Origin: Dudresnaya verticillata | Lineage: Eukaryota | Length of the DNA: 64,000 bases | Assembly: GCA_977862235.1 (NCBI GenBank) | Contig: OZ374561.1 | Location: forward strand, 1,426,001 to 1,490,000 | Reading direction: 5' to 3' | Part shown: one piece after another, positions 27,654-64,000 of the stretch | How positions within the stretch are numbered: position 1 is the first letter of the stretch | How the letters are laid out: each line of letters opens with the position of its first letter | Position numbers and translations under genes: made by a program | The notes under the pieces: generated by a model | What the model was told of the DNA's origin: nothing | What the model saw: only the letters and a program-made list of their open reading frames with translations | Databases searched by the model: none

Positions 27654-27866
27654 TCGCATTGTAAGAGATATGAGACTCGTTTCCGTGAGGGTGTCTGTTT
27701 GTATTATTATAACGCCTATCTCCCTAGCATCGATGCACATAGCCATGCAGCTCTTTGGCCATACTATAGGGAGTCTCTTGCCGTTTTCCTTCAATCTGCG
27801 AACTGCAATTAGCGTTCGCGTGCTGCACGGTGTTACTCCATTCAAAGCATGCTAGCGGAAGCAGTC

Positions 27867-43335: not shown

Positions 43336-46300
43336 TTACCCGCGTTGCGCGTCGTCGATGTTTGGCGGCAGGCGCGTGTGCTTCTGACGGTGATACCGCA
43401 CAACGTGCGATCGCGGTAGACTGGACACTGGTTCCCAAGTATTCGCTGAAGCGGGGTATCCAAACCACTTGACGCGGTAGAGGATCTCGCCGTCTTCTGC
43501 GTGTGCGTGCGACTCAACCCGTTCGATAACGTACTCCTCCGCGCTTGGAGCGGTCGACGTAGGCTCCTGCCGTTCTAGCGCCTTGAGCGGCTCACTTCGT
43601 TGCGTGATGGGCGTCTGCACCGGTTCGGCAAACCGTACTCGACGAGTCGATCACCTGAGGCGCTGGGTCGGTGCCCCGAGGGCTTGCGTAGCGGGTTGTG
43701 GTTCGTCGCTTTTGCGTACTGGTTCCTCGCTTCTAGCGGCATCTTTCGCGTTAGCGCGGTCGTCCTCATCGGCAGTCGATGCGCTCGAAGCGGGACCTAC
43801 CTTGGTAGCCGGCGAAGCCGAGGTTGCGTGTCCCATTCGCGTACGGATGCCGGGACCCTCCTCCTCGTCGGAGACGGATTGCGAGACACCGTCGTCGGGG
43901 TTAGCAGCAAAGGGCGAGAGCTCTGCTAACCCGCGGCTTCGTGGTCGTTGCATTCATTCGCTCCTGCGAGTCGTTCGTGCGGCGCGGCGTCCCTGTGCCT
44001 CCTGCCGGGTCCGCCTGCGGCGTGTCTGGGGTTCCTGCTCCTTCGTCGGTTGACGTGGGGGCCGGTGGTCCCGATACGTCAGGTGATCCCGGTGGTTGCA
44101 CGGTTGCGGGGGCGTTGTGCCCTGGTGGGGTTGGCGCCCATACCACGCGGTCTCGGGATAAGCATTCGCGTTCGCCACGTCCCTTGTCGACGGTGACTGT
44201 CCCGTCGTCGACGTGTGTTACTCGATACGGTCCATCCGCTACAGGTGCGAGCTTGTGCTTGCGCTCTGAGCGATCGGTGCTCCCGCCGCGGGCGAAGTAT
44301 TCTTTCCGCACGAATGCGAAGTCTCCCACAGCGATGTTCTCCTTCGATTTCCTCAGACGAGTATCGAAGTTCCGTTTGTAACGCGCCTGCGTTTTCGCGA
44401 GTGGCGCGTTAGCGGTTCCAATCAATGCGGACAGCCAGGTTCGCCATTTGGTGTAGTACTGTCCGGCAGTGGGCACGCTTTCAAGCGACGGCTCCGCTTC
44501 CAGCGACAATGGCCGCGGGGGCTTAGATAGCACCAACTCGAATGGAGCGAGGTGGGTAGACGAGTGCAGTTGCGTATTGTATGCGAACGTCAGAGCATCG
44601 GTGAACAAATCCCAGTCCCTGGCGTAGTGACGCAGGGAGGCGAGGATGGTTCGATTGAATCGTTCCACTTGGCCGTTACACTGCGGGTGGTATGTAGTGG
44701 TGAAGAGATTCTCCACCCCTAAAATGCGGCAGACGTCCTGGAACAACTTGGCTACAAACTGCGACCCGTTGTCGGACAGCAGATTCTTGGGTGGGCCATA
44801 CACAAACACCCAGTGTCGAACAAACGCCTTAGCGATTTCCAATGCCGTAATCTTACGTAAGGGAACCGTCCGGACCAGCTTTGAGAAGCGGTCCACGATG
44901 ACGAGTAGGAACTTATTCCCCCGCTTAGTGCGTATGAGCTCCCCGAGTATATCGATGGACACAAACTCGAGAGGCTCGGTTGCTGGGAACAGTTTCATCT
45001 CCTTCACGTTCTTTCGCATCAGTACCCGGTTCTTCGCGCAAGTAACGCAATTGCGGACGGTCGCGTAACAGTCCACCGACATAGACGGCCAATAATACTC
45101 GCGTCGAAGCGTATGGTACAGCTTCCGCCCTCCGGGATGTCCTGCTAATTTAGCATGATGCCGGAGGTGGAGCAATCGAACGCGTAACGCGGATGGTACA
45201 ACGACTTGGGGTCGGGCCTCGACGGTCCGGACCAATAGTCCCTGTTCGTCCGTTTCAAACGGTAGGTTGTCTCCGTCGTCTAGACGTTTCCGAATCTCAG
45301 AACAGTACTGGTCGCTGCCCTGAGCATGCACCAACTCTTCATGCGTCAATTGACGGAGGAGCACTTCATCCGCCGGTGGCGCGCTGGTAACCAACATCTG
45401 GTCAAATTCCTCGAAGTCTCGTTCGGAGAAATCGACTTCGCCCTTGACGTTTGACGTATCGCTTTCTGCGTGAGCGTGTCCTCTGACGAGAGGTCCTCGT
45501 CTTTGACGCAGCTTCCGTGGTAACACGGGATATCATCGTCGATTGGTTCGACCGTTTCGCCGTTCGTCTGTAGACGTGAGAGGGCATCTGCCTGAGTATT
45601 CAGGTACCCCTTTTTATACTTCACGACGAAGTCGAACTCAGAGAGGCGAAGGCCCCATCTCATCAACCGTCCCGAGGGGTCGCTGATTTCCATGAGCCAC
45701 CTCAACGACGAATGGTCCGTATAGACTACGAAGGACTCCATCTGAAGGTACGGTCTCAACGTCGTGATCGACCAGACTACTGCCAAGCATTCCTTTTCGG
45801 ATACCGAGTAGTTACGCTCCGGAGCGATTAACGAGCGTGACCAGAAGCCAAGCGGCTTCCGTTCGCCGTCAGGCTGCGTTTGAAAGAGTGCGCAGCCAAC
45901 TTGGTACTCGCTCGCGTCACAATCGACGGAGTACGGTAGTCCTTGTTGTGGCAGCGCCAGGATGGGCGGGTGAGTCACCGCTTCGACAAGCGTACTGAAT
46001 GCCCGAGCTTGCTCCTCGGTGCACGGTTGTAACCGGAAGTCTTGCTCTTTCCTTAACAATTTGTTGAGGGGAGCGGCGACATGCGCGTATCGCGATACAA
46101 ACCGTCTATAGACGTTGCATAATCCGAGAAAGCTCCGTAATTCCTTCTGGTCCCGCGGATGTTTGGCTTCGCGTAACGCGGCTGTGACCGTACGGTCTAC
46201 TTCCAATCGTCCCGGACATATCACATGGCCGAGATAGTTGACGGTCGGGGTGAAGAAGTCACACTTGGTTAACTTCAATGTCACCCCGGCCCGATGCAAG

Positions 46301-47514
46301 GTCGAAAGGATCTCGTCAACATGACGGAAGTGACTGTCGATATCATTCGAGAAGATGATCACATCGTCAAGGTAGACGAGGCATGAGCGCCACTTGTAAC
46401 CAGCAAGCAGGATATCGAGGGTCCGTTGGAACGTGGCCGGTGCGTTAGTAAGGCCGAAGGGCATACGTTTGTAGCGGAACAATCCGGCATGGCACGTGAA
46501 CGCTGTCTTGTCGCGATCTCGCGGGTTAATGGGCACCTGCCAGTAACCACTATTGCAGTCTAGGGTGGTGAAGATGTTCGCTTCCCCTAGACTGTCAATA
46601 CATTCATCGATTCGCGGGAGAGGGTACGTATCTCGTACCGTTACTGCGTTCAAGCGACGGTAGTCAACGCAGAAGCGGAGTGTACCGTCCTTCTTGGGAG
46701 CGAAGACGACCGGCGACGCCCATGGCGATTGGGCGGGTTCGATAACCCCCTGACGCAACATGCGATCCACCTCCGCTTGAGCGAGTTGCCTTTGCTTTGG
46801 GCCAGCGCGATAAGGCGGGGATGAAATCGGCCTGGAGCCGGGGAGCAAGTCAATATAGTGCTCCGTGGTTGCGATTTCTCCTAATGAACCGTCCCACATC
46901 GACGAGTACCTGCGCAGCATCTCCTTCAGCCGTCCTTGATGTTCGGCTGAGAGATGACTCAGGTCCAACTCGTCCACTGACGGAGGTTTCGCTATGGTTG
47001 CTTCGATCGACTTAGCGAATGTATCCGGCTGTGCCGTTACTCCATCATTCGTTTGAAAACGGAAATCTTGATTCGCCTCTTCCTCCGCTGCCTGCTCCTT
47101 GGTGATACCTAGGACACCGGCCAGACTTATGTGACTGGGGAACACTGCTGTGGGATGTGGCAACGCGGTAGCAACGACTTGTCCCTTGACGAGCGCTTGC
47201 GGACGCGGGGAGAAGTTTGCGACGAGAATCCTGAACACTCTCTGCGGCTCTACTTGAGCGACTCCGTTAGTAACGGCCAAAGCTTGCCGATCATATAACG
47301 TTCCAAACGGTTGGATGGTAATGACCCCTGCTCGCTCGGTCGTTACCGAGATCCACTTTTGCGCCTGCGGCGGGATGATCGTTCGTTCCGCAACGCGTAT
47401 CTTGGGCGACGTTCGTCCTCCGGCCGTGCCGTACTCCTGTTCCGTTGGCAACGGGGGGTACGACGAGGGACGGCGCAGCGGGCGGCGCGTTATAGGGACA
47501 CGGGTCCCGTCGTC
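43336..47514 (-). pseudogene. pol: pol of element A (RT-RNaseH-integrase-chromodomain), frameshifted
   Basis: [51 protein letters not shown], chromodomain YVIERVESH..YRVKWFGYP..TWEP; frame breaks near 45.5 kb and 43.6-44 kb. Confidence 0.93.
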
Positions 47515-48290
47515 TGTGGCGCAAATCGCCTTCGCGCCCTGTTGAAGAATTCTTCTTACTGCCGTCGATCGCGGCTCACGCGACTGCCGGACGACGGACG
47601 CACAGCGACCGTTTCGTGCGGATCAACCGCTGTGCGGGTGATTGAGCTCAGAGCCAATTTCTGTAATGAGCTCTGGCACCACGCGCACGCACCAGCAATG
47701 CTAATGGGGAAATGCCTCTGTAAGGCGCCCGGCCTGACAGTACGCGGCGCCCTCTGCCAGCAAGGATGGCCCCGCAACGCGACAGCGCGTACACGTGCAC
47801 ACGTGCGCCTCCTTGGCGCACACCTTTCAGCCGCACTACCGCTAGGCTGACAGTTGATATTTGTAGATAATTATAGAATTGCGCGCGCCACGTATTGCCA
47901 AGTGGCGCGCCCCCTTCCCTTACTTTAATCCGCCACCAAGGCGCACCCGCCTCCTACATAGTATAATAGGGCCCTGAGGTGCGCCCTCATACAGTAAACG
48001 GCCAAGCTTGGGCCCAGCGAGACGTACCCTCCTACCCTATCGACTCCCTCCTTAGGTTGGACTCCAGTACATCCGCTACCCATCTTCATCGTACAGAATC
48101 CTGTTTTTCTCTTGTTTTTTCCCTGTTTTCTCTTCCCTTCTAGGGTAACCCCCTTTCTCGGTCTTGTAGTGTTTTACAGTCGCACTACGGGGCTATTCCC
48201 CTGCTCTACCGCTACTACCTCACCTGCTACCGCCAGGCCCCCGAACCGCCTGAGGTGCACCCTCAATTCTACCGAGTGGATTGCAGCACG
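47515..48290 (+). repeat. 5' LTR of element B
   Basis: Direct repeat of 59372-60147 (about 4 internal substitutions by eye); ends TTGCAGCACG instead of TTGCACCACA. Confidence 0.95.
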
Positions 48291-50611
48291 TGCGCAGGCA
48301 AGTCCTGCAGTCCAAGCCGCTTTTTCGGCAATACCCAATGAGGCGGTTCCTCGCATTCCCCCTCGGTTGAGGTCTTACCTCCTGCCCCAGCCGGGACTCT
48401 CCCGACTGGGCAAGAGCAAGGCAGGCAGCCGGCACCTCCGCCGCCGCTGCCCAATCCACCGCCGCCGATTTCGGCATCAGTTCCGCCTCCGGTGGAGCCA
48501 CCCACAATCCAAGAGGAAGCACCTCGTGTTGCCTTCATACACGGGACAACTATTCCCCGAAGTGCAATTCAAGAGGTATGCCTCATGGAAGACCAGGCTT
48601 TTGCCGCCCGGCTGTCGCGTCAGATAACGGACAGCTTGGCTTTGGTCAACCAACGTATCGACGAGGTTAGTACTCGACTTGACCTCGTCCTGGAGAATCC
48701 TCCACAGAACCACGCGGACCTCGCCGTCGAGGTCCGCACACTTCGAGGAGACGTTAACCGCCTCCTCGAAACCTACGGGGCTACTCCCGCAAGGGGGCCC
48801 CGTCCGAATCCCCCAAGCCTACCCGCGCAACTTCCGCTCGATGACCGCATTACGCGGATTGCCGACCGCTTGGAGCGCCTAGAGGGCATATGCCTCAACG
48901 AGCGCGAACCGCCCCTGCCTCCCGATGACGGAGGCGCGAACAGAAGACAAGTCGAATTCGACAGTCACGCTCGACATGGGGACACTTACCCCAAGGACAG
49001 TTGCCCTTACGGGTGTACGGACCACCCTCATGATGACGACTACCGTCAAGACCGCCGTGAATCACGAAGTCAAAACCGTCATCATACCTCAACGCGGAAT
49101 ACCCGCAATCGCCGTCACCACCGCCACGGCTACGGAACTTCCTCCCGGTCGGCGTCCGACGACTCGGACTCAGACCGCTCCGACGGAGAAGTTTATGGAA
49201 ATCCCCGTCGCGATGATGGTATACGACGCAAGGGGCCGCGGTATAAGCATCTCAAGGAGCTGAAACCAACGAACCCCTTGCACGACCAATTGCTGTCTTA
49301 CAGGCACTACCGCCTACAGAATACGGAACAATCCCGTACAAGCCGACAGACCGGCAAGATCAAGGACCAGATCAAAAGACTGGAGTTAACCATGAAGGAT
49401 TGTTCCTTTAATGGGGAAGACCCGTGTTGATTTTGGAGTTTCTCTCCCGGTTAGTCGACGAAGCCGACACTCTCGACATGTCGGAAGCCCAGGCGTTCAT
49501 CGCCTTGCCCTACTTCTTACGCGGAAATGCCGCTACTCAATTTCGCTCCGTCAAGACCGCTCCGTCCCGTTCTAATGGAGGAGTGTCCTCATGGCCCGAA
49601 GCTGTGCAGTATCTTCTGCGGACGTACGCGACACCGAGCGCGCTACGTGAGGCAATCCTCGAGCTCCGCGCTCTCCGGCAGAACGCGGGCGAATCGGGAA
49701 CACTCTTCGGGATGCGAGTCTCGAAAGCGTGTAACCGATGTGGCAATGTCCACAAGGAATGGGAGAAGATGACGTACTTCATCGACGGTCTGGACCCGAG
49801 CATCCGCTCGCTGGTCGCCTGGTATCGAGAGGAAACTCCTCGTCACGAATTGTCGTTTGAACGACTAGTGCATTATGCACAAGATGAAGGTGAAGCTCAC
49901 CGTGGAAGAAATCGCGCACCACGCGCTGGACAAGACCAACTCGCGGGCCGCACCGCAACTACAGGAGGACGTCGTCCAGGACGCGGAAATTCCGCTATGA
50001 TGGCTGAGTCTTCTATCGAATTCCGAGACGGAAGTGGAGTTCCACGTAGGCAGGTGGGCGAGCAGGATGCCGAGGTGCACCTTTTGTACCCGGACGCGGC
50101 ACTGCTGTCGTCCGACCCACCTACCGACTCACAAGTAGAATCCTACGGAAGCGAAGATAATGCGCTTCTCATGCGCTCTCGTCAAGTCCCGGCTCCGCGC
50201 ATCCCATACCAGGAGCATTCACCTGGTATGAAACGCACACGGCCGGGCTGTAAAGATAGGTGAAATCCCCAAAGGAACTTCGGTCCCAAGCAGACAATCA
50301 TCTGTCACATTTTCTACAAGCCTGGGCATGTTTCACCCGAATGCTTCTTAGCATGGAAGGACTACCTGAGGATTATCCTCAATTATAAATCGCTCAGTGC
50401 GGTCGACCGCGAGCGTGTGCCGGCTACGTCCTACATGAAGGCGAAAGCACAGGCACAATACGATGAGGGAAGTCCTCAAGGTCGACCCCAGGTACCGCCC
50501 CCTGTGGTACCCCACACTAGCGAACGCCACCCTCAGGCGTTCGCGCCCGTTGGACAGCCCCCTTCGAATGGGCGCGACGGACGAGCGGACACCCGGAATT
50601 CGGAAAACTAG
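48291..50611 (+). pseudogene. gag: gag of element B (disrupted)
   Basis: Pro-rich N-part, FNGEDP/VLILEFL (frameshift ~49422), SWPEAVQYLLRTY, FIDGLDPSIR, in-frame TGA at 50261, degenerate knuckle CHIFYKPGHVSPEC, stop TAG 50609-50611. Confidence 0.85.
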
Positions 50612-53600
50612 TCGGGGTCATACCCCCTTCGACTGGGGAACGTCAAACGGAAACATTTCCGGTCGACATTCAAGGGTCACGACCCGACAAAAAGGAGAAT
50701 ATAACTCCAAAGACTATACTGCAGAACCCTGCAAGGACTAGACGGACCTCGGCCTCGCCACCAACGGCAGGATTACGTAGGCCCTGGCACCAGTACCGTC
50801 CACCGCATGCACAAGGCGAATTGCTGATAGCGGCAAAGCGCAACTTTAAAGTATACGCAGATACGGGTTTACACCCAAGCTACCTATCGCGTAAACTTAC
50901 TGTGCTAGATACCGGTGCCGGTCCCAACTTTATCAGAAAATCTGAACTACCACCTCAAGCGGAGTCCCGCATTCGAGACGGGGACATCCCCACCATCAGC
51001 GACGCCAACAACAGGCCGTTGCAAACATCCGGCGTCATCGCCTTGGTCGTTCGACTGGGCGACCGTATTGTCAAACTTGACTTTATTGTCTGCGAAAGAC
51101 TCGCCGCCCCGGTCATCCTCGGATGTAACTTCTGCGACCGTTTCGTAGAAGCCATCTATCCGAGGACCCGTGAAGTCGAACTCGACAATGGAACTCGCGT
51201 GCCGATTACGCGGCGACCATTGAAGCGACCGCCCACGGCTCCACCACTACCTGCTGATCAGGAGTATGAGCCACTACGAGGCCATACCTCAACGAAAATA
51301 CGCGTAGCGGGACGAACCGTAATCCCAGTCCAAGCGCAAAAGTGGGTTTCAGTAACCACAGAACGCGCGGGGCTGATTTGCCTCCAGCCCTACGACAAGC
51401 CGTATCACCGGCAGGGAATCATCGCAACGAATGGAATAGCCCATGTTGAACCAAAGCGGCCGTTCCGCATTCTAGTCGCGAACTTCACTTCGCACGACCA
51501 AGTTCTTCCGAAGAACCAGGTCGTCGCGACCGCCCTCCCGCACCCCACCGCCGTGGTGCCCAGTCCCATCCGGCTGGCGGACGTGCTTGGGCTGGCTGAC
51601 TTAGCGGACGATACCGCAACAAAAACCCAACGACTGGGAAGACTGTTGAATACGACAAACAAAGGTGACGCTCACGCGAAGACCCTTGAAGCTGAAAACG
51701 AACCTCCACCTTCGGTGGACGACGTGGATTTATCCCACTTGGCCGAGAATCACGCCCGGCGTGTGCGGGATTTACTTGGTAGGTTTTCTACAATGTGGGA
51801 TGGTTCACTAGGTGAAATCACCACTACGGAACATTACATCGATATGATTCCGGGTACGAGGCCGTTCTCGTGCCCACCCTATCGGACGGGTCCGAAGCAA
51901 CGCCAAGTGGAACAAGCGGAAGTTGACCGCATGCTACGAGCTGGTGTTATAGAACCGGCACAATCTCCCTGGGCATCTCCAGTTGTTCTAGTGCCGAAAA
52001 GGACGGTACCTTACGATTCTGTGTCGATTACCGACGTTTAAATGCCGCGACCGTTCGGGATACATACCCGTTACCGCGCATCGATGAATGTATCATTCAC
52101 TCGGCGAAGCAAATGTCTTCACTACGCTCGATTGCAACTCGGGGTATTGGCAAATCCCCATCAACGGTCGCGATCGTGACAAAACCACGTTTACATGCCA
52201 TGCGGGAACCTTCCGCTACAAGAGAATGCCATTTGGCCTTACCAATGCACCCGCTACCTTCCAGCGGACCCTGAATATCCTGCTCTCAGGTTTCAAGTGG
52301 CAGACATGCCTCGTTTACTTGGACGATGTTATCATCTACTCCAAGGACGTGGAAACCCACTTTAAACACGTCGAGCAGATCCTGACTGCATTGGACCAAG
52401 CCGGGGTTACCCTCAAACTGAAGAAATGTGACTTATTCACAAACACCGTCAACTACCTGGGCCATATCATCTGCCCCGGCGAACTGCGGGTTGACCCAAC
52501 GGTTACTGCGGCACTCCGCAAAGCAAAACACCCACGCACACAAACGGAATTGAGGTCTTTCCTCGGATTGTGTGACGTATATAGGAGGTTTGTCCCCCAA
52601 TTACTCTCACGTGGCAGGACCACTGAACCGGCTCCTCAAAAAGGATCACCCGGACAATATTGAGTCGCTCGACGACAAACAAGAGGCCGCGTTCCAGACG
52701 CTGATCAAAGCTGTCACGGAACCACCGGTACTATCTCTGCCAAAACCTGGCTTGCCCTATTCTGTCGATACCGACGCGTCGAACTACCAGGTCGGTTGCG
52801 CCTTATTCCAAACGCACACCGACGGTACGCGGAAACCCCTCGGGTACTGGTCCCGTTCTCTACAAGCCGCCGAAAAGAATTACTCGGTTTCCGAGAAGGA
52901 ATGTTTGTTACTGGTGTGGGCTGTTACCACTTTACGGCCCTACCTCCAAATGGAAAAGTTTACCATACACACCGATCACTCCTCTCTTCGTTGGCTAATG
53001 GAGATTAATGATCCCTCCGGGCGCCTTATGCGCTGGCGCCTACGTATGTCGGAATTCGACTTTGACGTCCGCTACAAAAAGGGACGCATCAACACCCAAG
53101 CGGACGCCCTTTCGCGTCTTCAAACGCTTGGCGAAACGCAAGTCGACATCGACGATGAAATTCCGTGTTTCCACGTTGAGGCGGATGCTCCTTCAACCTG
53201 CGCCGTTTGCGATAATGAGGAATTCCTCGAATTGGACGACGAAGTATCCGACCAACTCCTTCTGGCGAATCCGCCGTCAAACCAACCTGAGCTCTTGCGC
53301 CCAATCACGACGGAAGAGCTTCTTCAAACGCAACTAGCAGATGCTTTCTGCACCTTCCTGCGTTCTCGTCTTAACGGGGGGGAGGGGTTACCGTTCGCGC
53401 TGGACGAGACAGGAGTCCTCATTCGCACACGAGAGGCACTTCCTCAAATTGTAATACCATTTACTCTTCGCGCACGGGTGCTACACTTGGCACACTTCCC
53501 GAAACTATCCGGACATCCCGGTGGGCGCAAGATGTATTACTCACTCCGTAGATCATTCTACTGGCCTTCCATGGCTGTGGACTGTTACGCCACGGTAAGA

Positions 53601-55814
53601 AACTGCACAACGTGTGCACGCAATCGCGTTATGCTACGCCGTAATACCAAGCATATGAAGCTGTTTCCAGCAAAAGCACCCCTGGAGTTTGTCTCCATTG
53701 ACATCTATGGCGAACTGATTCGCACGAAACGAGGCAATCGATTCCTCTTTGTCATCACAGACCGTTTCTCCAAACTCGTTCGGACAGTTCCGATGAAGAA
53801 GATTACGGCTGCGAAAGTTGCCGAAGCGTTCATTACGCATTGGGTCTACGTCTACGGACCTCCGTTGTATCTACTATCAGATAATGGCGGACATTTTGCC
53901 GCAAAGTTGTTTCAGTCGTTATGTGGAACTTTGGGGATCAAAAACCTCTTTACTACAACCTATCACCCCCAATACAATGGGCAGGTTGAGCGGTTCAACC
54001 GCACAATGCGCGCCGCGCTACTGCACTACGTTGCGGACCATCCGCGTGAATGGGATTTATTCTCAGATGCCATCACCTACGCGTACAATACGCAAGTTCA
54101 TTCTACCACGAACCCTGCCCCCTTCCAGCTGGTACTCTCCAGACCTCCACCCGCTCTAAGCGTCGAGGCACATCCCTCACTGGAACCAGTGCCGAGTTCG
54201 GCTACATTCCACGCCAAGTGGCAATCCTGGCTCACAGGACTACTGTCAACGGCCACAAAAGGCGTTGACCAGACACAAGCGCGATACAAACGCAATTTCG
54301 ATAACAGGGTACATCCCTCACGCGACGTCATCGGAGTAGACTCCTACGTCTACGTACGTAAGGAGTACTATGGGAAGGATACCCCAAAACACAAACTGGC
54401 GCCTATCGCCGACGGCCCCTATCGCGTGAATGACGCAAATGATAAGACGGTCACCGTCGAGAAGGACGGGCCTGAATACGAGCGGATTTCCCGCGACAGA
54501 GTCGTGTTGGCGCCCACCCCACCAAGGGACGCGACCAACCAAGCCGACGCCGAAGGGACGGCAGGCCCGACAGATGCGGATTTACCGCCAACAAACGATC
54601 TCAATAACGATCATACTCAAGTACAGTGCCCTGACGGAGCTACTGTGTCTCACGGGGAAAATGCCCCAATTACTTTTCATGCTGTGGCACCAGCCACACA
54701 GCCACGAAATGATCGCGGGTTGGCGGATTTACCACCGCTGACGGTACCCGGACGCACCGCTGGCGTCCGCACGCGGACTACCGCAACTCACTCACCACCC
54801 ACCACACGCGCCGACGCCGCCGCTTCCACTCCAACTCCTGCTCCCGCAAGTTCGGAGCCGGGATCCAGGACAGAGAACGACGCCCGCGCAAATGGGCACC
54901 CCATCGCGGATCAGCCGCACGCTGTCTCAGAAGGCACCAAGGCCGTCAACGGTACAACAGAGGGAATTCCTCATGATACCTCACCAAAGGCACCAGCGAC
55001 ATCGCCCGACGACCCCCACTCGGAGGAAACTCCTCGTCAACGGCAACCCGCGCAGAATACCGGCACAACCGCCTCCCAGGAGAATACTCCACAAGAAGCA
55101 GCAACGCGAGATATACTCCGCAAAGGCTCGCCTATTCGTCGGATAACGGAAGACTTCGAGCCACACCCATCCGGGACACTACACACCCATCGCCTAACAC
55201 CCGCCGCAAAATCGGCTGACATCAATCAGGTGGATGAGCCACGGCCCCTTAGTCAGGCTGAAACCCTACCCGCTGACGGGAAGGACCCCGCTCCTGAAGG
55301 AGAGACACGCGATGTGTCGCCAGACGCGTCTAGAACGCAAGACAACCACAAGGAGAATTCTCCACGCTCACCAAGAAAGAGCGTCACGTTTGACGACACC
55401 ATTAGGGAAATCCCTACGCGGCCTCTCGTGAGCCGGAGCCTCGGATCAGAAGCGGCAGACCGCAATCAAGTCACAACCGCGACCATTGGCACACCAAGCC
55501 CCAGACGGAGTCGCCGTATAGCTACCGCCGTTCCGCGCGTGTCACAATCGGACCCTCGGCCTAATGACACCGTGTCATCACGGCACCGACACCATGCCGA
55601 CATTCCGCAGCGTGACGAGTATGTCATCGAAAAAGTGGTGAACCACAGTTATGATAATACAGAACTGCTGTTTGAAGTCAAATGGTACGGCTATCCGTCT
55701 GCGCAAAATACATGGGAGCCCATACAACATCTACCGCGGAGTCAAGTTATCTCCTATTGCAAGAGGAGACGTCTCGGCGTCCCCTCCACCATCACCAAGG
55801 CCATGGTGGGCTAA
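50602..55814 (+). pseudogene. pol: pol of element B (PR-RT-RNaseH-IN-chromodomain), -1 frame to gag, three frameshifts
   Basis: LDTGAG, YLDD, DTDAS, EKEC, GHPGG..CTTC, IN core, DGPY, chromodomain YVIEKVVNH..FEVKWYGYP..TWEP; shifts near 51997, 52095 and 52597. Confidence 0.95.
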
Positions 55815-57554
55815 CCCCCAAACGCTACCAGGTCCAAATGAAGTGGAGACACCACATTGAAGAGTCCCCGGGAGTCGATTCCACAGTGGTTGCTGCACAC
55901 ACGACGGAGGTACTGTACGCCACGGTATAACACCTGATTGGCCAGACGCTATTTTAATTAACGCCGCACGAATCAGATGCCCGTTATGCTCACCCACTCA
56001 CCTAGCGGTCTACCGCAACTGGTCGCCATCGTCGCTTCCAAAGTCGAATACGACTAAGTTAACGATTCAAGCATACACAAAACGGGATTCCGTAGCGATT
56101 TTTCCTAGCCACCAACGGCTTTGAGCTGCCGTTCCCCCATCCGAAGGGGAACGCCGTGGCGCAGGCTGTACACCAAAAAGCGGAATTCCGCATCGCAGGG
56201 CGTTCGCGTCAACGACAACCCGACGCTCACGACCCCTATGACATGAGGCGCTCCATACCGCCTTTGTGGCGAATCCAAAGGGGAACTCCTCCGCGTGGAC
56301 TGTAGCAGCGTGCAGCCGTACGCTATGGCCGTCTCCAAGCCGTCTGCGGCGGAGCCTACCAAAGCTGCCATCCTTACAACGGAATTCCGTAATCACGGGA
56401 CTGAGCAGTCGATGGCCTTTGGCACCCGCTCCCCCATGGAAAAGTGGATATCTACACCTAAATCGCACCACGATGTGGCGTTCCACGAACTTCTTTTACG
56501 CCCAATAATTGGGGAACACCCCTACAAAGGCCATAACCAACTACTGTAGCCACCTCTCCGTTGCCTACGACAGACTCTCTAACAGCAATTATGCTGAAAC
56601 GGAATTCCGTGAACACTCACCGCGGGCCACGAGCAGACTGGTGTACCCCTGACTCAAAGAGATGGGTGTACCTCCGCCTGCGTGTGCCCATGCGGCACCT
56701 ACCTCCGCAAACGTTCGAGACAAGTGGTATTCCACACAACCGAAAATCCGCGCCCAAGCCCCTCGGCGCTCCTACAGTGGGGAGGCCATTGTTCACGTGG
56801 CATTCCACTTATCTAGACGGACTGGGTCACCCTATCGCCTAACTACCCAGAGAGGCGCGTACGCAACTACGTCCGGCTAGCCGGGTCAGCATGCAACATA
56901 GGCAAACAAGCTCGTTAACAGACTTCTGTACAACCAATTAATCTGGCTAGACCACAGTGCGCGTTTGGGCTACTGCACGTGCCACAGTACAGGACCGGGC
57001 TACTGTACTCCCTTCAGGTTACGTGCCTCAGGCCACTCCATGGATTCCCATTGGGCGATGACGGTGCCAATGTACCCCCGCACCAATCACCTGCCGTGCG
57101 CCTCTACACAGTCCACCCTAGCGGAAAGCCGCAGCTGCCCCTCACCTTCTCCCCCAAGTCGTTCACGACTAAGTGGGAATTGCGAGCCATGCCCAGAACG
57201 GAAATCCGTACCTACTGCTCTAAGCCGCCAACGGCCTTGAACACCCGCACGCCCAGTGGTCGGAGCACACCTACGTGCAAGTCGCTTACGATTTGTGGAC
57301 TTCCACACTACGCGTCGTACGCCTCAATGATGGCATATTGCGACCCCCGCGTTCGCCGACATCTACGTATGCGAATCACTGCGCTGTACTACCGCTCAGG
57401 GAGCTCCCCTAAGAGCGACTCGCCGCATGATGGCAAACAAGAACTCAAACAGGCAAACTTTTAATAAGTCCTGATTATGGCGATGCCCTCCCTACTACGA
57501 CGCATGGGCTAGTCCCACAGGGTCGGTTGCCCCACGCCATATGTCGATGCTCGG

Positions 57555-59237
57555 CTAGATATCAGCAGGCCCGCTTGGGCCTGCTTCCTCCTCGCCATCC
57601 GGGTTATACCCCTTACCCACGGCCACCTCGAGGAGCTCCTCATCGCTGCCACGGATGGCAATCTCGGGAATTCCCGTTCGACGCAAGAAGCCGATTACGG
57701 CAATGCGCTGACTGAAACTCAGTCGCACACGTCGTGCGCGAGGCCGGCTCTCCGGATCAGGCGATGGCGGCCGAATAGCGGGCGGCCGAACGATCGGCAC
57801 GCTCGCAATAGCAACGCCGCCGCCGCTGCTCCCACCCGCGTCAACCGCCGCTTCCGTCGCCGCAACCGGGGCATCAGCGGTAGTCGGCGATGCCACGACT
57901 GGGCAGTCCTCCCCTACAGGTGCATCGACCGTCATGGTATCATCCTCGGGAAGTTCCCCATTGTCATCTGAACCCGAGAAACTCTCCTCGTCGTCCGATT
58001 CTGGCACCCCAACCGCCTCGGGATCCACCAGGTAGCCTCGCGGCTGCCCCGGTGGCATCGAGCGCGGGTGGCTGCGCAACCAAGCGGCACGGTCCGCAGA
58101 AACAAAGGTGCGCGTCCACGGGTCGAACCAAGCCCAATCGCCGCACAAGGGGTGCCGACGCCCAGGCGAAAAGTTCGTAGCCGAGGAACTCCTCTTGTTG
58201 TTACACAACGGGACGCGCTGCTCGTCGCGGTCCCAGTCGATCTGGGAGAAGAACCCCAACAATACGCGGAACTCCGCTTCATTATTAACGCCACCAAGAA
58301 CAACCTTGAAGTCCAACTGGTCAAAGCACCCCAGGACTGTGGGCGACACGTACCACATGCGGTACGTGTCGTAAAGTTCCCACAGCCACTGAGTCGCCGT
58401 CTTCGCCACGAATTCCGTGTAGTAGACGGTCCACAGCCCGGATTGCGGGTAGCCGATGACCGACGACATGGTGTAACTCACCGCAGGGGACAACTCCACG
58501 AGGAATCCCTCACAGCACTCCACCAGTCCCCATTGCGGGACTGGCAGCCGAATATAGCCTCGATCTCGATAATTGCGATGAATGGCGTCGATCTCGACAT
58601 TGGGGTATGGGACCAGGAATCCTAGACGGGAGCGGACGCGCCGCTCCCACCTGATCTTATCCCAATACGCGTTGTTCGCCCGTTTGCGTATGAAGCGGAA
58701 TTCCGCACGAAGTTGTACCCCCATCAGCAGAGCCGACTGACGAACCCACGGCTCCACTCCATCCCACGCGTGCGGGATGGGGAGGTTCTCGAGGGCGTCC
58801 GCATAGGGGATTTCCCCATTGGTGCGATACACACTCAAATCCAACCAGTATCCATGAGGAATAACCTCTCGACCCGGCGTACGCGACAATCGCTGCAGAA
58901 CCAAGCGGACATACCGCAGCCGCGCCTTGCGGACGTCCTCGCCGCCATGGCGACGGATCCACTCCGGCCGAATCGCACCATGGCGACGCCAGTCAGGCGT
59001 ACGGAGGACACGGAGGGGAAGTCCCCCAGGTAGGTAACCATCATCCGAGACATATTGCTCAATCAGGGCATGGTTGCCAAAGTTAGAGTGGAACATCCAC
59101 GGTGCATTCGCAAAGTCGATTAGGTCGTTCCACGGCGTCTTGCCCTCGAAGTTGGCCGGCGTCGGATAACTTGCAGAACTCTGCGGCGCATGCAGTAACA
59201 CGCGGTCAAGTTCCGCAAGCGAAAAGTGGGGAGGCAT
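57555..59237 (-). CDS. Antisense accessory ORF-X of element B (560 aa)
   Basis: Intact ORF from ATG 59237, 135 bp inside the 3' LTR boundary; collinear homology to A ORF-X (YRTNGE, CEGF, W.W..YDT.R, VLGG, CGDW.W..PWT, PRG). Confidence 0.88.
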   Translation of the reverse strand: MPPHFSLAELDRVLLHAPQSSASYPTPANFEGKTPWNDLIDFANAPWMFHSNFGNHALIEQYVSDDGYLPGGLPLRVLRTPDWRRHGAIRPEWIRRHGGEDVRKARLRYVRLVLQRLSRTPGREVIPHGYWLDLSVYRTNGEIPYADALENLPIPHAWDGVEPWVRQSALLMGVQLRAEFRFIRKRANNAYWDKIRWERRVRSRLGFLVPYPNVEIDAIHRNYRDRGYIRLPVPQWGLVECCEGFLVELSPAVSYTMSSVIGYPQSGLWTVYYTEFVAKTATQWLWELYDTYRMWYVSPTVLGCFDQLDFKVVLGGVNNEAEFRVLLGFFSQIDWDRDEQRVPLCNNKRSSSATNFSPGRRHPLCGDWAWFDPWTRTFVSADRAAWLRSHPRSMPPGQPRGYLVDPEAVGVPESDDEESFSGSDDNGELPEDDTMTVDAPVGEDCPVVASPTTADAPVAATEAAVDAGGSSGGGVAIASVPIVRPPAIRPPSPDPESRPRARRVRLSFSQRIAVIGFLRRTGIPEIAIRGSDEELLEVAVGKGYNPDGEEEAGPSGPADI

Positions 59238-59361
59238 CGCAACACGTCCGCTGCACACACGATGAGCGGACCCCCGCAAGCTGAGATGGCGAGGCGTCGT
59301 GCCAACTTGCGCCTGACGCAGAAATATCCCTGTGGGCTCGTGCGGGTACTCGCCGCTTAAC

Positions 59362-59371
59362 GGGGGGGAGA
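59362..59371 (+). other. Polypurine tract of element B
   Basis: GGGGGGGAGA immediately before the TG of the 3' LTR. Confidence 0.9.
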
Positions 59372-60147
59372 TGTGGCGCAAATCGCCTTCGCGCCCTGTT
59401 GAAGAATTCTTCTTACTGCCGTCGCCCGCGGCTCACGCGACTGCCGGACGACGGACGCACAGCGACCGTTTCGTGCGGATCAACCGCTGTGCGGGTGATT
59501 GAGCTCAGAGCCAATTTCTGTAATGAGCTCTGGCACCACGCGCACGCACCAGCAATGCTAATGGGGAAATGCCTCTGTAAGGCGCCCGGCCTGACAGTAC
59601 GCGGCGCCCTCTGCCAGCAAGGATGGCCCCGCAACGCGACAGCGCGTACACGTGCACACGTGCGCCTCCTTGGCGCACACCTTTCAGCCGCACTACCGCT
59701 AGGCTGACAGTTGATATTTGTAGATAATTATAGAATTGCGCGCGCCACGTATTGCCAAGTGGCGCGCCCCCTTCCCTTACTTTAATCCGCCACCAAGGCG
59801 CACCCGCCTCCTACATAGTATAATAGGGCCCTGAGGTGCGCCCTCATACAGTAAACGGCCAAGCTTGGGCCCAGCGAGACGTACCCTCCTACCCTATCGA
59901 CTCCCTCCTTAGGTTGGACTCCAGTACATCCGCTACCCATCTTCATCGCACAGAATCCTGTTTTTCTCTTGTTTTTTCCCTGTTTTCTCTTCCTTTCTAG
60001 GGTAACCCCCTTTCTCGGTCTTGTAGTGTTTTACAGTCGCACTACGGGGCTATTCCCCTGCTCTACCGCTACTACCTCACCTGCTACCGCCAGGCCCCCG
60101 AACCGCCTGAGGTGCACCCTCAATTCTACCGAGTGGATTGCACCACA
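59372..60147 (+). repeat. 3' LTR of element B (776 bp)
   Basis: TGTGGCGCAA...TTGCACCACA imperfect terminal inverted repeats, followed by TSD TCGTC. Confidence 0.96.
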
Positions 60148-60707
60148 TCGTCCAGCTCAATCTCGCGACTCCGCGGATAAATCGCTTCGACAAAGCGGTC
60201 GCAAAAGTCGCAACCGAGTATAACCGGCGCAGCGAGCCGTTCACAGACGATCAACTCCAACTTGACGACTCTTCGTCCGAGACGTACGACTAAGTCGATA
60301 GTGCCCCGGGTCTGAATCGCTTTGTTGTTAGCGTCTGATATGACGGGGAGACTCTTGGATACGATCCGTGACCGCGCTTCTAGCGGAATATCGTCAATAC
60401 GGATGAAATTCGGACCAGCCCCCGTGTCGAGGACAGTGAGTTTACGTGCCAAGGTACCTACAGTTATGCCTAGATCGGCGTATACTTTGTAGTTCCTTTT
60501 GGCCATTACGAACAACTGTACCCGGGCTTCTGGGGGCTGGTACCTACGCCAGGGGCGCTTCAAGGACGTCTGTGACGAGTCTACCCGCCCATCGGCGTGT
60601 TTGTTAACTACGTTCGGGTCCTCCTTCCGTGTCAGCACCCGAGGCGGAAGCCTCTTTGCTTGGTGCGACACCCCAGTGTCAGGAGTTGGTACCCTTATTA
60701 GTTTTTC
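60148..60707 (-). pseudogene. pol: Protease (5') part of element A pol
   Basis: KRNYKVYAD, LTVLDTGAGPNFI, VILGCDFCDRFVEAIYP; continues into 47514 after excising B. Confidence 0.92.
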
Positions 60708-60954: not shown

Positions 60955-61740
60955 TGTAGTATCTCGCACGGCACCACCGCGTACGGCAGCCGGGCGAGAC
61001 CCCAAGAGGACCCAAAAGACCTGTCGGATTTCGTGGTAGAACGGCCGAACGTAGAACGGACCTGCGCACCGGTAGCAAATATGGTAGAGCGGAGTGCGCA
61101 GACGAAGTCGCGGCCAAAAACCTGGATGAGCAGCGGAAAATGGCCGAGTTGGGAAAAAGGTTACAAAACTTTACTCTCAACCTCTGGCGGGACATCTTCG
61201 TACCTATTTTGGCCGAGCCGTGGTTTGTGGCCGTCTAAGTAGGCCCAAAATCGGCCACTAGAGCTAATCTAGAGCTATTCTACATATTCTACAGTTAGTG
61301 GCCGAGGTTACTCCCCGTCGGCCATAATATCTACTTGTGTACCGGTGTCGGGCCAATGTTGTACCCTTACCAGTTTAAACCAAGTACTTGTTCGTTAGTG
61401 GTCGGCCAAGTGAGTTAGATTTTCCCTTGATTTTTCTGCTGTCTTCTGCTTGATTTCATGCGCGGCCAGATCCCATTTCCCTTTCGCACTTGCTTCCAGA
61501 TCCGATCACACCGATCATACGTGTACAGCGAGCCACGTGGTGCGCTTAGGTGTCGTCGGTGGCCACGTGTGACACACGTGTACACTTGTTGGACACGTGT
61601 GCTCCTTGCACGGTGTTCACCGTCGTCCGCTCGGCCGCACTGTCGTCGGTTGGCCAAACGTATCTTTGTGATTGGGCTGCCCGTCCCACTTGGCCCGGCC
61701 GGTTGCGCCCGTTTTGGAGGCCCCTTGGCGTTGCACCACA
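60955..61740 (-). repeat. Inferred 3' LTR of element C (786 bp)
   Basis: TG..CA ends, terminus nearly identical to the B LTR terminus, adjacent PPT, size similar to the B LTR; partner LTR not visible. Confidence 0.7.
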
Positions 61741-61951
61741 GAGCCCCCTTCGCAGCGCGGATCCCCGGCCGCGAGCTCGGATCACGGCTATATCAAGACG
61801 GGTGCCACGTCGTCTGGCACCCTCATCCCCGGCCATCATCCTCAGCACGCGCATCTTCACTGCGCCCACTTGCACCCTACGGCCGACTGCGCTCCTTACT
61901 CTTCACCTTCTTCCACCTTCTTCCGCGCCACTTCTCGGCCGTCGCGTAGCG

Positions 61952-63990
61952 ATGACTACCGGCCCGGCCAAACAGCGCGCGCGTCGCGCTCCCTCTTCCC
62001 GTCGTGCGAAGAAGACCCCGCCCCCGCGCGTGATCTCATCCGACTCTTCGAGCGACGACAACGCGGCCATCTCAGCGCAGAAGAAGCCGTCAATGGCCGA
62101 TTTGCGGAAAGCAGTGGCGTCGTCATCCAAGAGCACGCCGGCAAAAGTCACAGCGCCCTCATCATCCAAACACACGGCCGCGCCTCAAGAGAAGAAAACG
62201 GCCGACGAGCAAGCTAAGGAGTTGGCAAATACAGAAGAATTGCAGAAGGTCCTGGCCAACTACCGCGAACGTCGTGCGGCCGAGGACAAGGAAATCTTGG
62301 AACTGCAGAGTCGTTTGGCCGCGTTGGAAGAAGCGAAGAAGACTACTGCGAAGACGTCGGCCGATGCGGTGTTACTCTCGTCATCATCCCCGACACCCCC
62401 TCCCGTTTCCAAGTCAAGGCCGATGAAGCTGGCCATATCCGCTCTTGCACCGTCGCCGAACGTGGCTGCAGCTTCTGGTATGACCACTCGCAAGAACATT
62501 CCGTCGGTTCCGGCTCTCCCCTTGCCTGTGATGCGCGTAACTCCGGCCGACTCTGCAGCGGTAGCGGGGGCATCGTCTGCCCCAGTTGACACGGCCGCTA
62601 TCAAGCAGGCCAGCAAGAAGGCGACACGCCCTTCTTCGGCCGTTACCGCTATTGTGCCGCCGGCCCCACTTCCAACTTCGGCCAATCAGTCTACCCCGTC
62701 TGCCAGCGTTGGACCCGATGGAAACGCTAAAGCGGCAGAGGCAGCACCTGAGAAGTCGGCTAATGAGAAGAAGGTGGATCGTGCTGAGACGGCCAACCCA
62801 GAAGACTTGGCCATCTTGCGTGAAGCTATGGAAGCAGCGGCCGAACGAGAGAAGGCGCGTGCCTTAGCAGGTATCGCTGTCCCACGTCGGCCGACAGCTG
62901 AGAAGGCCACTGATAATCCGACGGTGCACCGTTTAGCCCCTCGCTTGCGGTCATCTCCTTCGCCATTCATGCCTACTCGTCGATCTGCCCCCGGTCTAAA
63001 GCCTTCTTCATCGCGCAGCCCACCATCGAAGAAGTTGCGAACGGCCGAAGAAGAGAAGACAGCGGCCGTTAAGAAGGTACCTCCTCCTTCGAGGAGCGAG
63101 GTGATCGACGTCGATGCGGACACCCCTGTGCCACCGGCGATGTTGATGAGCGATGGCGACCAGCGGCGCTTCACCAGTCAGTTGCCCGACTTAGAAGACT
63201 TATCTCGGCCGAATAACAAGGGGGAAGTTGCTCCAGCGGCTCCCACTTCGGCTCCTCAGACATCTTCACCGGCCGTTCCAGCTCCAACGCCAGACCCCAG
63301 GGAGTCTGCACTTATTCCGCGTGAAGACGTAGTGGATGCCACGGCCGTTAGTCAAGAAGTTCGTCGGCCGACCTCATCAGCCGCTCGTCCAACTCGTGGC
63401 CATTCTGTGCCGATTTCTACACCGGCCGACTCTTCTCCTCTGCCGCAAGACTCCGCCCCTGCTAGGCACAACCAGACGGCGTCACATCGGCCGGCTCATA
63501 TCCTACCGGGGACCGAAGATCGCGACGGCCCAGAGTTGCGGCTTGACGCAAGCTTGCCCGACATGTCCATATGGCCGAAGTTTCCGAGAGTCGACATCAA
63601 CTACACGGAGTTGGTGGCTACTTCGCCGAAGTTGGATATGGTTCGTCTTCGGAGAGTCCCGATAACTTGGCCGATAATTGGCGCCAGTTCCGTTCTTCGC
63701 GCGCTGGTGGCCACTTGTATTGGGTGCCATGGGAGATTGGATGCGACCGCGCCTTCTTGCTCAACATGGGCGACGTTCTGTTGGTCCACCAAGCTTGGCT
63801 TACGCTCACCGGCCGTTCCTCCGTAATGCTATACATGTTGACTTGGTGGCATGCCTTCCCGCAGTCTTGGATGTTGGACCGTGCAGATCAGGCCGTGGTA
63901 CGTAGTGCGAAATGGGCTAGCACGGACTTGCGCCGCGTGATTGCTCCGACCGACTGGGTTGCTCATCAAACAACCGGTTGCTACATCTAG
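61952..63990 (+). pseudogene. Antisense accessory ORF of element C (basic/Ser-Ala-Pro-rich region with coiled coil, then Trp-rich domain); one frameshift near 63660
   Basis: ATG 61952, open for over 560 codons; protein-like continuation DNLADNWRQF..HLYWVPWEIG..WWHAFPQSW in another frame. Confidence 0.65.
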
Positions 63991-64000
63991 TTGGCCGGTG

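What the first reader, a model, noticed from the sequence alone, without database searches (positions are those of the whole stretch)
60955..64000. Element C has a different antisense ORF and its own palindromic signature, YGGCCR
Seen: about 49 YGGCCR sites in 3.05 kb (e.g. near 61042, 61111, 61141, 61210, 61228, 61252, 61299, 61319, 61403, through 63992). They are dense even in the relatively AT-rich LTR; rough expectation is ~6. I saw no comparable CGCC-N3-GGCG array here. The antisense ORF has the inverse layout to ORF-X (disordered N-part, Trp-rich C-part) and no visible homology to it. Inference: a second protein/motif pairing, supporting the idea that each family marks its LTR and accessory gene with a private site.
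Basis: partly seen in the sequence, partly recalled or inferred. Interest (0 to 1): 0.8.

Follow-up and report, generated by a model that had tools for sequence, protein, structure and literature searches.

The report
Retrotransposon end studded with YGGCCR palindromes
The last 3 kb of the window, the end of a jumping gene with a backwards-facing extra gene, carries 50 evenly spaced copies of the six-letter palindrome YGGCCR (about nine times the chance number) in both non-coding and coding DNA, which likely serve as docking sites for a paired DNA-binding factor, though nothing here shows what binds them.

Summary
Window 60955-64000 holds 50 YGGCCR sites (16.4 per kb). The other 60,954 bases hold 80 (1.3 per kb). 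Dinucleotide shuffles give 5.5 +/- 2.2.

- **Non-coding LTR:** the excess holds there too, 14 sites against 1.2 +/- 1.1.
- **ORF:** 28 sites against 7.3 +/- 2.3 when synonymous codons are shuffled. Ala codon usage therefore does not explain it.
- **Spacing:** sites are never closer than 18 bp, and gaps are more even than random (CV 0.61 against 0.96).
- **Tandem repeats:** none underlies the array.

The stretch reads as the 3' LTR, polypurine tract and antisense accessory ORF of a minus-strand LTR element. That element is inserted into a neighbouring Ty3/gypsy element.

The ORF is an orphan: I found no homologue, no Pfam family and no usable fold. It shows no similarity to ORF-X of elements A and B.

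The "private palindrome per family" idea holds for A and C. A carries CGYC-N3-GRCG, whose half-sites are conserved between two diverged copies. It holds only weakly for B.

No call tests whether the ORF product binds the motif. My best guess is an array of binding sites for a dimeric factor on duplex DNA (confidence 0.3). No other copy of C could be found, so a partner LTR and site conservation within C are untested.

The parts
60955..61740 (-). 3' LTR of element C (786 bp; outer end could be 60953). On the minus strand it starts TGTGGTGCAA and ends ...CTACA. It holds 14 YGGCCR sites and four CACGTG at 61534-61594.
   Evidence: Termini and comparison with B's LTR ends. Motif count against shuffles. 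A's minus-strand coding sequence stops being recognisable at this boundary.
61741..61753 (-). Likely polypurine tract of C. The plus strand reads GAGCCCCCTTCGC, so the minus strand has GAAGGGGG directly upstream of the LTR.
   Evidence: The same 'CA then C-run' junction is seen at A (39346-39367). In B's own sense strand it appears as AACGGGGGGGAGA before the 3' LTR. No TGG-type primer binding site is present here.
61741..61951 (+). Leader between the LTR and the ATG of the antisense ORF, with 4 YGGCCR sites.
61952..63640 (+). Antisense ORF, first frame (563 codons from the ATG; this frame stays open to 63826). It has a basic N-terminus, a short coiled-coil-like stretch, and a long Ala/Ser/Pro/Thr-rich part. 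It holds 28 YGGCCR sites, 22 of them as NYG-GCC-RNN.
   Evidence: No homologue and no Pfam family.
63659..63682 (+). Imperfect 12/11-nt tandem duplication inside the zone where the reading frame switches (both frames are open over 63571-63826). TGGCCG at 63668 sits on its junction. A 47-nt GT..AG interval (63641-63687) is an alternative way for the frames to connect.
   Evidence: Tandem Repeats Finder, ORF list, sequence.
63688..63990 (+). Antisense ORF, second frame: the Trp-rich C-terminal part (8 Trp in 100 residues) and the stop codon. It holds 2 YGGCCR sites.
   Evidence: 0 hits among 1.84 billion representative proteins. AlphaFold pLDDT 43.
61042..63997 (.). Array of 50 YGGCCR palindromes. 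Spacing is 18-182 bp, mean 60. It is not built from tandem repeats.

Best explanation
The stretch is the 3' LTR, likely polypurine tract and antisense accessory gene of a minus-strand LTR retrotransposon, and its 50 evenly spaced YGGCCR palindromes are likely a selected array of binding sites on double-stranded DNA for a two-fold symmetric (dimeric) factor, possibly the element's own antisense protein.

Shown:
- The excess is present in both non-coding and coding DNA.
- Inside the ORF it is kept up by coordinated synonymous codon choice.
- Sites keep a minimum distance of 18 bp.
- It is private to C.
- In neighbouring family A, the half-sites of that family's own palindrome are conserved while spacers and flanks drift.

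Inferred:
- The sites are read as duplex DNA by a dimer. This rests on the palindromic form, the short length and the footprint-like spacing.
- Recognition would work by density, since a single 6-bp site occurs about 1.4 times per kb in host DNA.
- The outcome would be control of LTR-driven sense and antisense transcription, or marking or tethering of the element's DNA.

None of the binding steps was tested.
For: - Enrichment: 50 against 5.5 +/- 2.2. LTR alone: 14 against 1.2 +/- 1.1.
- Synonymous-codon shuffle: 7.3 +/- 2.3 (maximum 16 of 2000) against 28 observed.
- 22 of 33 GCC Ala codons sit in the YG_R context, against 7 of 59 other Ala codons and 3 of 34 GCC codons in a host ORF.
- A's ORF-X tail is richer in Ala (19.5%) yet has 0 YGGCCR and 20 of A's own motif.
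- Spacing: minimum 18 bp (0 of 20,000 random placements reach that) and CV 0.61 against 0.96 (P = 0.0001). The non-coding part alone shows the same: CV 0.44, P = 0.0002.
- No tandem-repeat origin.
- No flank consensus beyond Y..R, and Y and R vary independently.
- Family A: for sites defined in one copy and checked in the other, core positions differ at 1 of 136 and 18 of 216. Flanks differ at 49 of 272 and 91 of 432.
- Antisense ORFs between pol and the 3' LTR with predicted DNA binding and nuclear location are described in plants (PMC7264820 and PMC11963269, passages read).
Against: - Nothing ties the ORF product to the motif. It has no recognisable DNA-binding domain, and both AlphaFold models are unusable, at pLDDT 43 and 39.
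- This copy's ORF changes frame near 63660, so it may not make the protein at all.
- Only one copy of C is available, so conservation of C's own sites is untested.
- A 6-bp degenerate site carries little information.
- A palindrome is equally self-complementary as RNA.
- B, whose ORF-X is homologous to A's (35% identity), has no dense array. This weakens a general protein-to-array link.
- A's two site classes covary (40 and 25 symmetric, 1 and 1 mixed). A single homodimer does not predict that.
Confidence: 0.3

Rival explanations
1. The palindromes would act in the element's RNA. Self-complementary GC-rich hexamers spread over the 3' part of the genomic RNA (internal region plus U3/R) would let RNAs of the same family pair with each other, giving family-specific dimerisation or co-packaging.
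For: - YGGCCR is self-complementary, and Y opposite R allows C-G, U-A or U-G.
- The whole stretch lies in the transcribed 3' part of the element.
- The motif differs between families.
- The LTR plus leader folds somewhat better than shuffles (z = -2.46; 1 of 20 shuffles as good).
- Six-base GC-rich palindromes start dimerisation in retroviruses (recalled, not from a call).
Against: - The first kb of the ORF region folds no better than shuffles (z = -0.35; 8 of 20).
- Known dimerisation sites are single loops in the 5' leader, not 50 sites at the 3' end (recalled).
- In family A the G-U intermediates are nearly absent (1 and 1 against 65), and pairing is avoided just outside the arms (5 of 67 Watson-Crick). 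That does not look like RNA helices.
Confidence: 0.15
2. The sites would be read by a host factor and not by the element's own protein. This could be a host transcription factor that the element recruits, or a host chromatin or defence protein.
For: - The same DNA-level evidence as for the best explanation.
- The ORF has no recognisable DNA-binding domain.
- The array is present although this copy's ORF is broken.
- The LTR also holds four CACGTG boxes, a common factor site.
Against: - Three neighbouring families in one genome use three different palindromes. That fits element-specific readers better than one host factor.
- An element would not be expected to maintain sites for a host repressor through synonymous codon choice.
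Confidence: 0.2
3. The sites would be targets of a sequence-specific DNA-modifying or DNA-cutting enzyme, for instance a GGCC or YGGCCR cytosine methyltransferase. Density would set the epigenetic state of the element.
For: - YGGCCR is the recognition sequence of the EaeI/CfrI type of bacterial enzymes (recalled).
- The palindromic form and even coverage would suit blanket modification.
Against: - No methyltransferase or nuclease family was found in the 19 ORFs scanned from the window: 17 of the 28 stop-to-stop frames of 250 aa or more, plus two shorter ones.
- CpG and GpC observed/expected values are ordinary in C and in host DNA.
- YGGCCR in host DNA is at the chance level, so there is no sign of avoidance.
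Confidence: 0.08
4. The excess is a by-product of base composition, Ala codon usage or a hidden repeat, and has no function.
For: - 22 of 31 ORF sites use the Ala codon GCC.
- The ORF is 16% Ala.
Against: - The non-coding LTR has 14 against 1.2.
- The synonymous shuffle never exceeds 16 against 28 observed.
- A more Ala-rich neighbouring ORF has 0 sites.
- No tandem or dispersed repeat underlies the sites.
- The spacing is non-random.
Confidence: 0.02

Closest known systems
Antisense additional ORFs between pol and the 3' LTR of plant Ty3/gypsy elements: Grande gene23, RIRE2, Retand with the TRP28 domain (PMC7264820 and PMC11963269, passages read)
   Same: - An ORF facing against gag-pol, next to the 3' LTR, with no clear relatives.
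- Family-specific repeated sequence in the same region.
- A nuclear or DNA-binding regulatory role has been proposed.
   Different: - No TRP28 or other Pfam family is found here.
- The repeated feature is a dispersed 6-bp palindrome, not tandem repeats.
- It runs through the ORF and the LTR.
- The neighbouring elements A and B are Ty3/gypsy, and B has a chromodomain.
- The host has intron-poor genes and is not identified.
HBZ of HTLV-1, an antisense gene driven from the 3' LTR (named in PMC7264820 and PMC11963269; details recalled)
   Same: An accessory protein encoded on the opposite strand at the 3' end. It would be transcribed from the 3' LTR side and acts in the nucleus on LTR-driven transcription.
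   Different: HBZ is a bZIP protein. No bZIP or other domain was detected here. HTLV has no array of private palindromes.
Subterminal motif arrays of DNA transposons bound by their own proteins: Ac/Ds hexamers, En/Spm 12-mers (recalled)
   Same: Many copies of a short family-specific motif packed into the element's end regions and read by an element-encoded protein.
   Different: Those are cut-and-paste elements, the motifs are not palindromes, and they lie in about 200 bp at each end. Here the array spans 3 kb or more of a retroelement, coding DNA included.
Viral genome-tethering or regulatory dimers with palindromic site arrays: EBNA1 at oriP, papillomavirus E2 at ACCN6GGT (recalled)
   Same: A dimeric protein encoded by the element itself reads repeated palindromes on its own DNA.
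   Different: Those sites are longer (12-18 bp), fewer and non-coding. No binding is shown here.
EaeI/CfrI restriction-modification site YGGCCR (recalled)
   Same: The identical degenerate palindrome.
   Different: No enzyme gene is seen, the setting is eukaryotic, and host DNA shows no avoidance of the site.

Membership tests
LTR retrotransposon (3' end), likely Ty3/gypsy | LTR with TG...CA termini and a short terminal inverted repeat | tested here: met
   On the plus strand 60955 reads TGTAG... and 61740 ends ...CCACA. The inner end matches B's LTR end in 10 of 10 bases, or 9 of 10 in the other orientation.
LTR retrotransposon (3' end), likely Ty3/gypsy | Polypurine tract directly upstream of the 3' LTR | tested here: met
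   GAAGGGGG lies on the minus strand at 61741-61753. The same junction is seen at A and B.
LTR retrotransposon (3' end), likely Ty3/gypsy | Second, near-identical LTR and a target-site duplication | not testable with these tools
   The window ends at 64000, no genome is held and no sequencing run was listed.
LTR retrotransposon (3' end), likely Ty3/gypsy | Own gag-pol with RT, RNase H and integrase in Ty3/gypsy order | not testable with these tools
   C's internal region beyond the ORF lies outside the window. Only neighbours A and B show these domains.
Antisense additional ORF between pol and 3' LTR (aORF-3R) | ORF on the strand opposite to gag-pol, next to the 3' LTR | tested here: inconclusive
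   The orientation relative to the LTR and polypurine tract fits. C's pol is not in the window.
Antisense additional ORF between pol and 3' LTR (aORF-3R) | TRP28 (PF04195) domain of the Retand type | tested here: not met
   A Pfam scan at E up to 10 lists no TRP28 for either part of the ORF.
ORF-X family of elements A and B | Sequence similarity to the roughly 400-residue ORF-X domain | tested here: not met
   BLASTP best E-values are 0.36 to 3.9. A-X against B-X gives 2e-83.
[quoted passage not shown] | Head-to-tail copies of one unit | tested here: not met
   Tandem Repeats Finder lists only five 2-copy micro-duplications, and one of them touches a site. No repeat families lie behind the sites.
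Retroviral dimerisation-initiation palindromes | GC-rich 6-base palindrome shown in a hairpin loop of the 5' leader | tested here: inconclusive
   The palindrome is present, but at the 3' end and 50 times over. Fold z-scores are -2.46 and -0.35. The 5' leader of C is not in the window.
Restriction-modification-like system for YGGCCR | A cognate methyltransferase or nuclease gene | tested here: not met
   No such Pfam family in the 19 ORFs scanned, which are 17 of the 28 frames of 250 aa or more plus two shorter ones. The rest of the genome could not be searched.

The most novel reading that the evidence does not exclude
LTR retrotransposon families of this genome each carry a private palindromic address code. 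The code is a dense, evenly spaced array written into the LTR, the leader and even the codons of an antisense accessory gene. That gene's product is a new kind of dimeric DNA-binding protein that recognises only its own family's array. This would give each family self-recognition for regulation, tethering or nuclear import of its DNA.
Probability: 0.2. Interest if true: 0.85.

Novelty: new variant of a known kind. Interest (0 to 1): 0.6.

Why it matters
Antisense extra genes at the 3' end of LTR retrotransposons have been known for decades without a function (PMC7264820, passages read). Here such a gene and its LTR are overlaid with a statistically unmistakable, family-private cis-signal. The signal is strong enough to dictate synonymous codon choice. 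In the neighbouring family the matching signal shows purifying selection.

That turns "what do antisense ORFs do?" into a testable question: does the protein, or some other factor, read the array? If it does, this would be a self-recognition system in retroelements. It would be comparable to transposase-bound subterminal repeats or to viral tethering proteins.

Four literature searches found no description of dispersed family-specific palindromes in LTR elements. The library lacks most subscription journals, so this is not proof that none is in print.

Tried and rejected
**Other copies and relatives of C**
- No whole genome is held.
- No sequencing run was listed, and no RNA holder was listed.
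- The search for homologous proteins with the ORF: 0 of 7,988 scored candidates passed.
- HMMER of the C-terminal 139 residues against 1.84 billion representatives: 0 hits.
- The search for related loci in metagenome and viral contigs with the C ORF found none. The ORF-X alignment found none either.
- The scan's earlier notes held nothing relevant.

**Fold and family of the proteins**
- Pfam at E up to 10: only sub-threshold noise.
- PDB sequence search: best E-values 0.94 and 0.027, both unconvincing.
- AlphaFold: pLDDT 43.4 for the C-terminal part and 38.8 for ORF-X with 4 sequences. No fold search was run on either model.
- ESM Atlas: recognition 2118, below the 2300 mark. The glycosyltransferase-like rows share only about 100 of 256 features, so I rejected them as chance.

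**Other ideas tested and dropped**
- CpG decay as the source of the Y/R degeneracy: CpG observed/expected is about 1.1 everywhere, and Y and R are independent.
- Helical or other periodicity of C's sites: the best period, 23.5 bp, has r = 0.30, below the null median of 0.32.
- Extended palindrome or second motif in C: none beyond (Y)GGCC(R).
- The ORF as a sense gag of a plus-strand element: no similarity to B's gag region, no gag Pfam, and no TGG-type primer binding site after the LTR.
- A's short gag piece against B's gag: no similarity.

**Organism**
An Atlas look-up of the host transporter gave only "eukaryote, fungal-like urea transporter". I did not pursue this further.

One script call returned no answer and was replaced by a lighter one.
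Full report
**What is in the window**

The window is eukaryotic, and no prokaryote-type genome is held for it. Bases 1-35,500 carry long, intron-poor host ORFs: a sodium:solute/urea transporter, a protein kinase, a PPR protein, a bromodomain protein and a JmjC protein.

From about 36 kb onwards it is a nest of LTR retrotransposons.

- **Element B.** B (47515-60147, plus strand) has two 99%-identical LTRs (TGTGG...CCACA), a TCGTC target-site duplication on both sides, and a polypurine tract before its 3' LTR. It carries gag and RNase H-integrase-chromodomain. It also carries an antisense ORF-X at 57555-59432.
- **Element A.** B sits inside A, which is on the minus strand. A has integrase and RT at 43901-47622 and a protease at 60126-60671. 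A's antisense ORF-X (39818-42124, plus strand) is 35% identical to B's over 456 residues.
- **Element C.** C starts at 60955 (or 60953) and cuts off A's upstream part.

**Anatomy of C**

60955-61740 has TG...CA ends. Its inner end (...GTTGCACCACA) matches B's LTR end. It is followed at once by GAGCCCCCTTC, which reads GAAGGGGG on the minus strand.

The same "CA then C-run" junction is found at A (39346-39367) and, in B's own sense, as AACGGGGGGGAGA|TGTGG. No TGG-type primer binding site follows the LTR.

C is therefore read as a minus-strand element of which the window shows the 3' LTR, the polypurine tract and the adjoining internal region. The plus-strand ORF starting at ATG 61952 is antisense to it, in the same place as ORF-X in A and B. 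That C is Ty3/gypsy is inferred from its neighbours, because its pol is outside the window.

**The ORF**

The first frame has 563 codons (61952-63640) and stays open to 63826. A second frame, open from 63571, ends with the stop at 63988-63990.

The switch zone holds an imperfect 12/11-nt tandem duplication (63659-63682). A 47-nt GT..AG interval (63641-63687) would also connect the frames. With one copy and no RNA data I cannot choose between a frameshifted copy and a small intron.

The protein has a basic N-terminus, a short coiled-coil-like stretch, about 400 residues rich in Ala, Ser, Pro and Thr, and a C-terminal 100 residues with 8 Trp. It is an orphan:

- No hit among 7,988 scored candidates.
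- No hit for the C-terminal 139 residues among 1.84 billion representatives.
- No relative in metagenome or viral contigs.
- No Pfam family at E up to 10.
- Nothing credible in the PDB sequences or the ESM Atlas.
- No BLASTP similarity to either ORF-X or to B's gag region.

The AlphaFold models are too poor to compare: the C-terminal part scores pLDDT 43.4 and ORF-X scores 38.8.

**The motif: counts and chance**

YGGCCR occurs 50 times in 60955-64000 and 80 times in the other 60,954 bases. Dinucleotide shuffles expect 5.5 +/- 2.2, with a maximum of 15 in 500. The excess is as strong in the non-coding LTR (14 against 1.2 +/- 1.1) as in the ORF part (32 against 3.6 +/- 1.7).

Of 61 GGCC, 50 have the Y..R flanks. 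The flanking pairs further out are Watson-Crick at the chance rate, 13, 11 and 10 of 49. No other palindrome is enriched in C. The array is not made of tandem or dispersed repeats.

**The motif: codon usage**

Within the ORF, 22 of 31 sites read NYG-GCC-RNN, with GCC coding Ala. One search took the ATG one base too far to the right, so its frame 0 corresponds to this reading.

Codon usage is the consequence of the motif, not its cause:

- Keeping the protein and its codon usage, 2000 synonymous shuffles give 7.3 +/- 2.3 (maximum 16) against 28.
- 22 of 33 GCC codons lie in the YG_R context, against 7 of 59 other Ala codons.
- A host ORF has 3 of 34 GCC codons in that context.
- The tail of A's ORF-X is richer in Ala (19.5%) yet has no YGGCCR. 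It uses GCG for 46 of 72 Ala codons and carries 20 copies of A's own motif.

**The motif: spacing**

Sites are never closer than 18 bp; 0 of 20,000 random placements reach that. Gaps are more even than random (CV 0.61 against 0.96, P = 0.0001). The non-coding part alone shows the same (CV 0.44, P = 0.0002). There is no significant periodicity other than the codon period.

**Is it private to C?**

Yes for A and C. CGCC-N3-GGCG and CGTC-N3-GACG occur 40 and 25 times in 36000-43900 and hardly anywhere else (9 and 6 in the rest of the window). C has none. A and B have background YGGCCR.

B is a weak case. GGAATTCC occurs 7 times in the window, all inside B, and none is in its LTR.

A also offers the one test of selection available here. 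It is present as two diverged inverted partial copies.

| Sites defined in | Ungapped sites examined | Intact in the other copy | Core differences | Flank differences | Spacer differences |
|---|---|---|---|---|---|
| Decayed copy | 17 | 16 | 1 of 136 | 49 of 272 | 10 of 51 |
| The other copy | 27 | 15 | 18 of 216 | 91 of 432 | 22 of 81 |

The half-sites are under purifying selection in that family. By analogy, which is inference, the same is likely for C.

**How it most likely works**

The features are these:

- a short palindrome;
- private to one family;
- spaced at footprint-like minimum distances;
- kept up through codon choice;
- spread over the antisense gene and the LTR upstream of it.

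These fit an array of sites on duplex DNA for a two-fold symmetric reader. Recognition would work through density, since single sites occur about 1.4 times per kb in host DNA.

The element's own antisense protein is the obvious candidate, but no call bears on binding. I put this reading at 0.3.

Points against a simple protein-to-array link:

- B has an ORF-X but no dense array.
- A's two site classes covary almost perfectly (2 mixed of 67). Yet pairing is avoided just outside the arms (5 of 67). That fits neither a single homodimer nor ordinary hairpins.
- This copy of C's ORF is interrupted.

The rivals, with my confidence in each:

- **RNA-level self-pairing for family-specific dimerisation (0.15).** Fold z-scores are -2.46 and -0.35.
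- **A host factor (0.2).**
- **A DNA-modifying enzyme (0.08).** No such gene is seen, and CpG/GpC ratios are ordinary.
- **A compositional by-product (0.02).** This is contradicted.

**Comparison with what is known**

Antisense additional ORFs between pol and the 3' LTR are described in plant Ty3/gypsy elements: Grande gene23, RIRE2 and Retand. Their function is unknown. Nuclear location has been reported for some, and DNA binding is predicted for the TRP28 domain. They often come with family-specific tandem repeats in the same region (PMC7264820 and PMC11963269, passages read).

The present case shares the layout but differs in three ways:

- It has no TRP28 domain.
- It has no tandem repeats.
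- Its signal is a dispersed palindrome that runs through coding DNA and the LTR.

Four literature searches found no description of such arrays. The library lacks most subscription journals, and I opened no supplements.

**Verdict**

I file it as a new variant of the known antisense-ORF-bearing LTR elements, with interest 0.6.

The main limits are the single, truncated copy of C and the lack of any genome, RNA or protein relatives.

Noticed in passing
window 36000-43900: Element A's motif comes in two symmetric classes: CGCC-N3-GGCG (40) and CGTC-N3-GACG (25). There are only 1 and 1 mixed forms, so positions 3 and 9 covary. Yet the pair just outside the arms is Watson-Crick in only 5 of 67. In the roughly 450-bp leader before the ORF-X ATG (39475-39805) the two classes largely alternate at about 24-bp steps.
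   Followed up: partly
window 36115-38221 and 39754-41875: A large inverted duplication (arms 89-92% identical). Two partial A-family copies lie head to head, each with an ORF-X. The left copy has lost about half of the motif sites, 19 against 33.
   Followed up: partly
window 53219-58697: GGAATTCC occurs 7 times in the window, all inside element B (pol, spacer and ORF-X) and none in its LTR. Four of them read CGGAATTCCG.
   Followed up: partly
window 47515-60147: Element B is complete at 12,633 bp, with 99%-identical LTRs and a TCGTC target duplication. It is inserted into A's pol/protease region. C then cuts off A's upstream part at 60953/60955, giving three levels of nesting.
   Followed up: yes
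window 39815-41200; protein P0002: The ORF-X domain (about 400 residues, Trp-rich) has a single relative in 5.8 billion proteins: an 820-residue protein from one ENA contig, at 29% identity. It has no Pfam family.
   Followed up: partly
window 63659-63682: The TGGCCG site at 63668 lies exactly on the junction of the 12/11-nt tandem duplication in the frame-switch zone. This one site was created by the duplication. It is the only one of the 50 sites that lies in a tandem duplication.
   Followed up: partly
window 61534-61594: Four CACGTG boxes lie within 66 bp in C's LTR. This is a likely promoter or enhancer cluster, separate from the YGGCCR array.
   Followed up: no
window 6000-10000 and 19000-32000: Host DNA has local bursts of GCGCGC/CGCGCG, for example 10 and 9 in 9-10 kb. 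I did not examine them.
   Followed up: no
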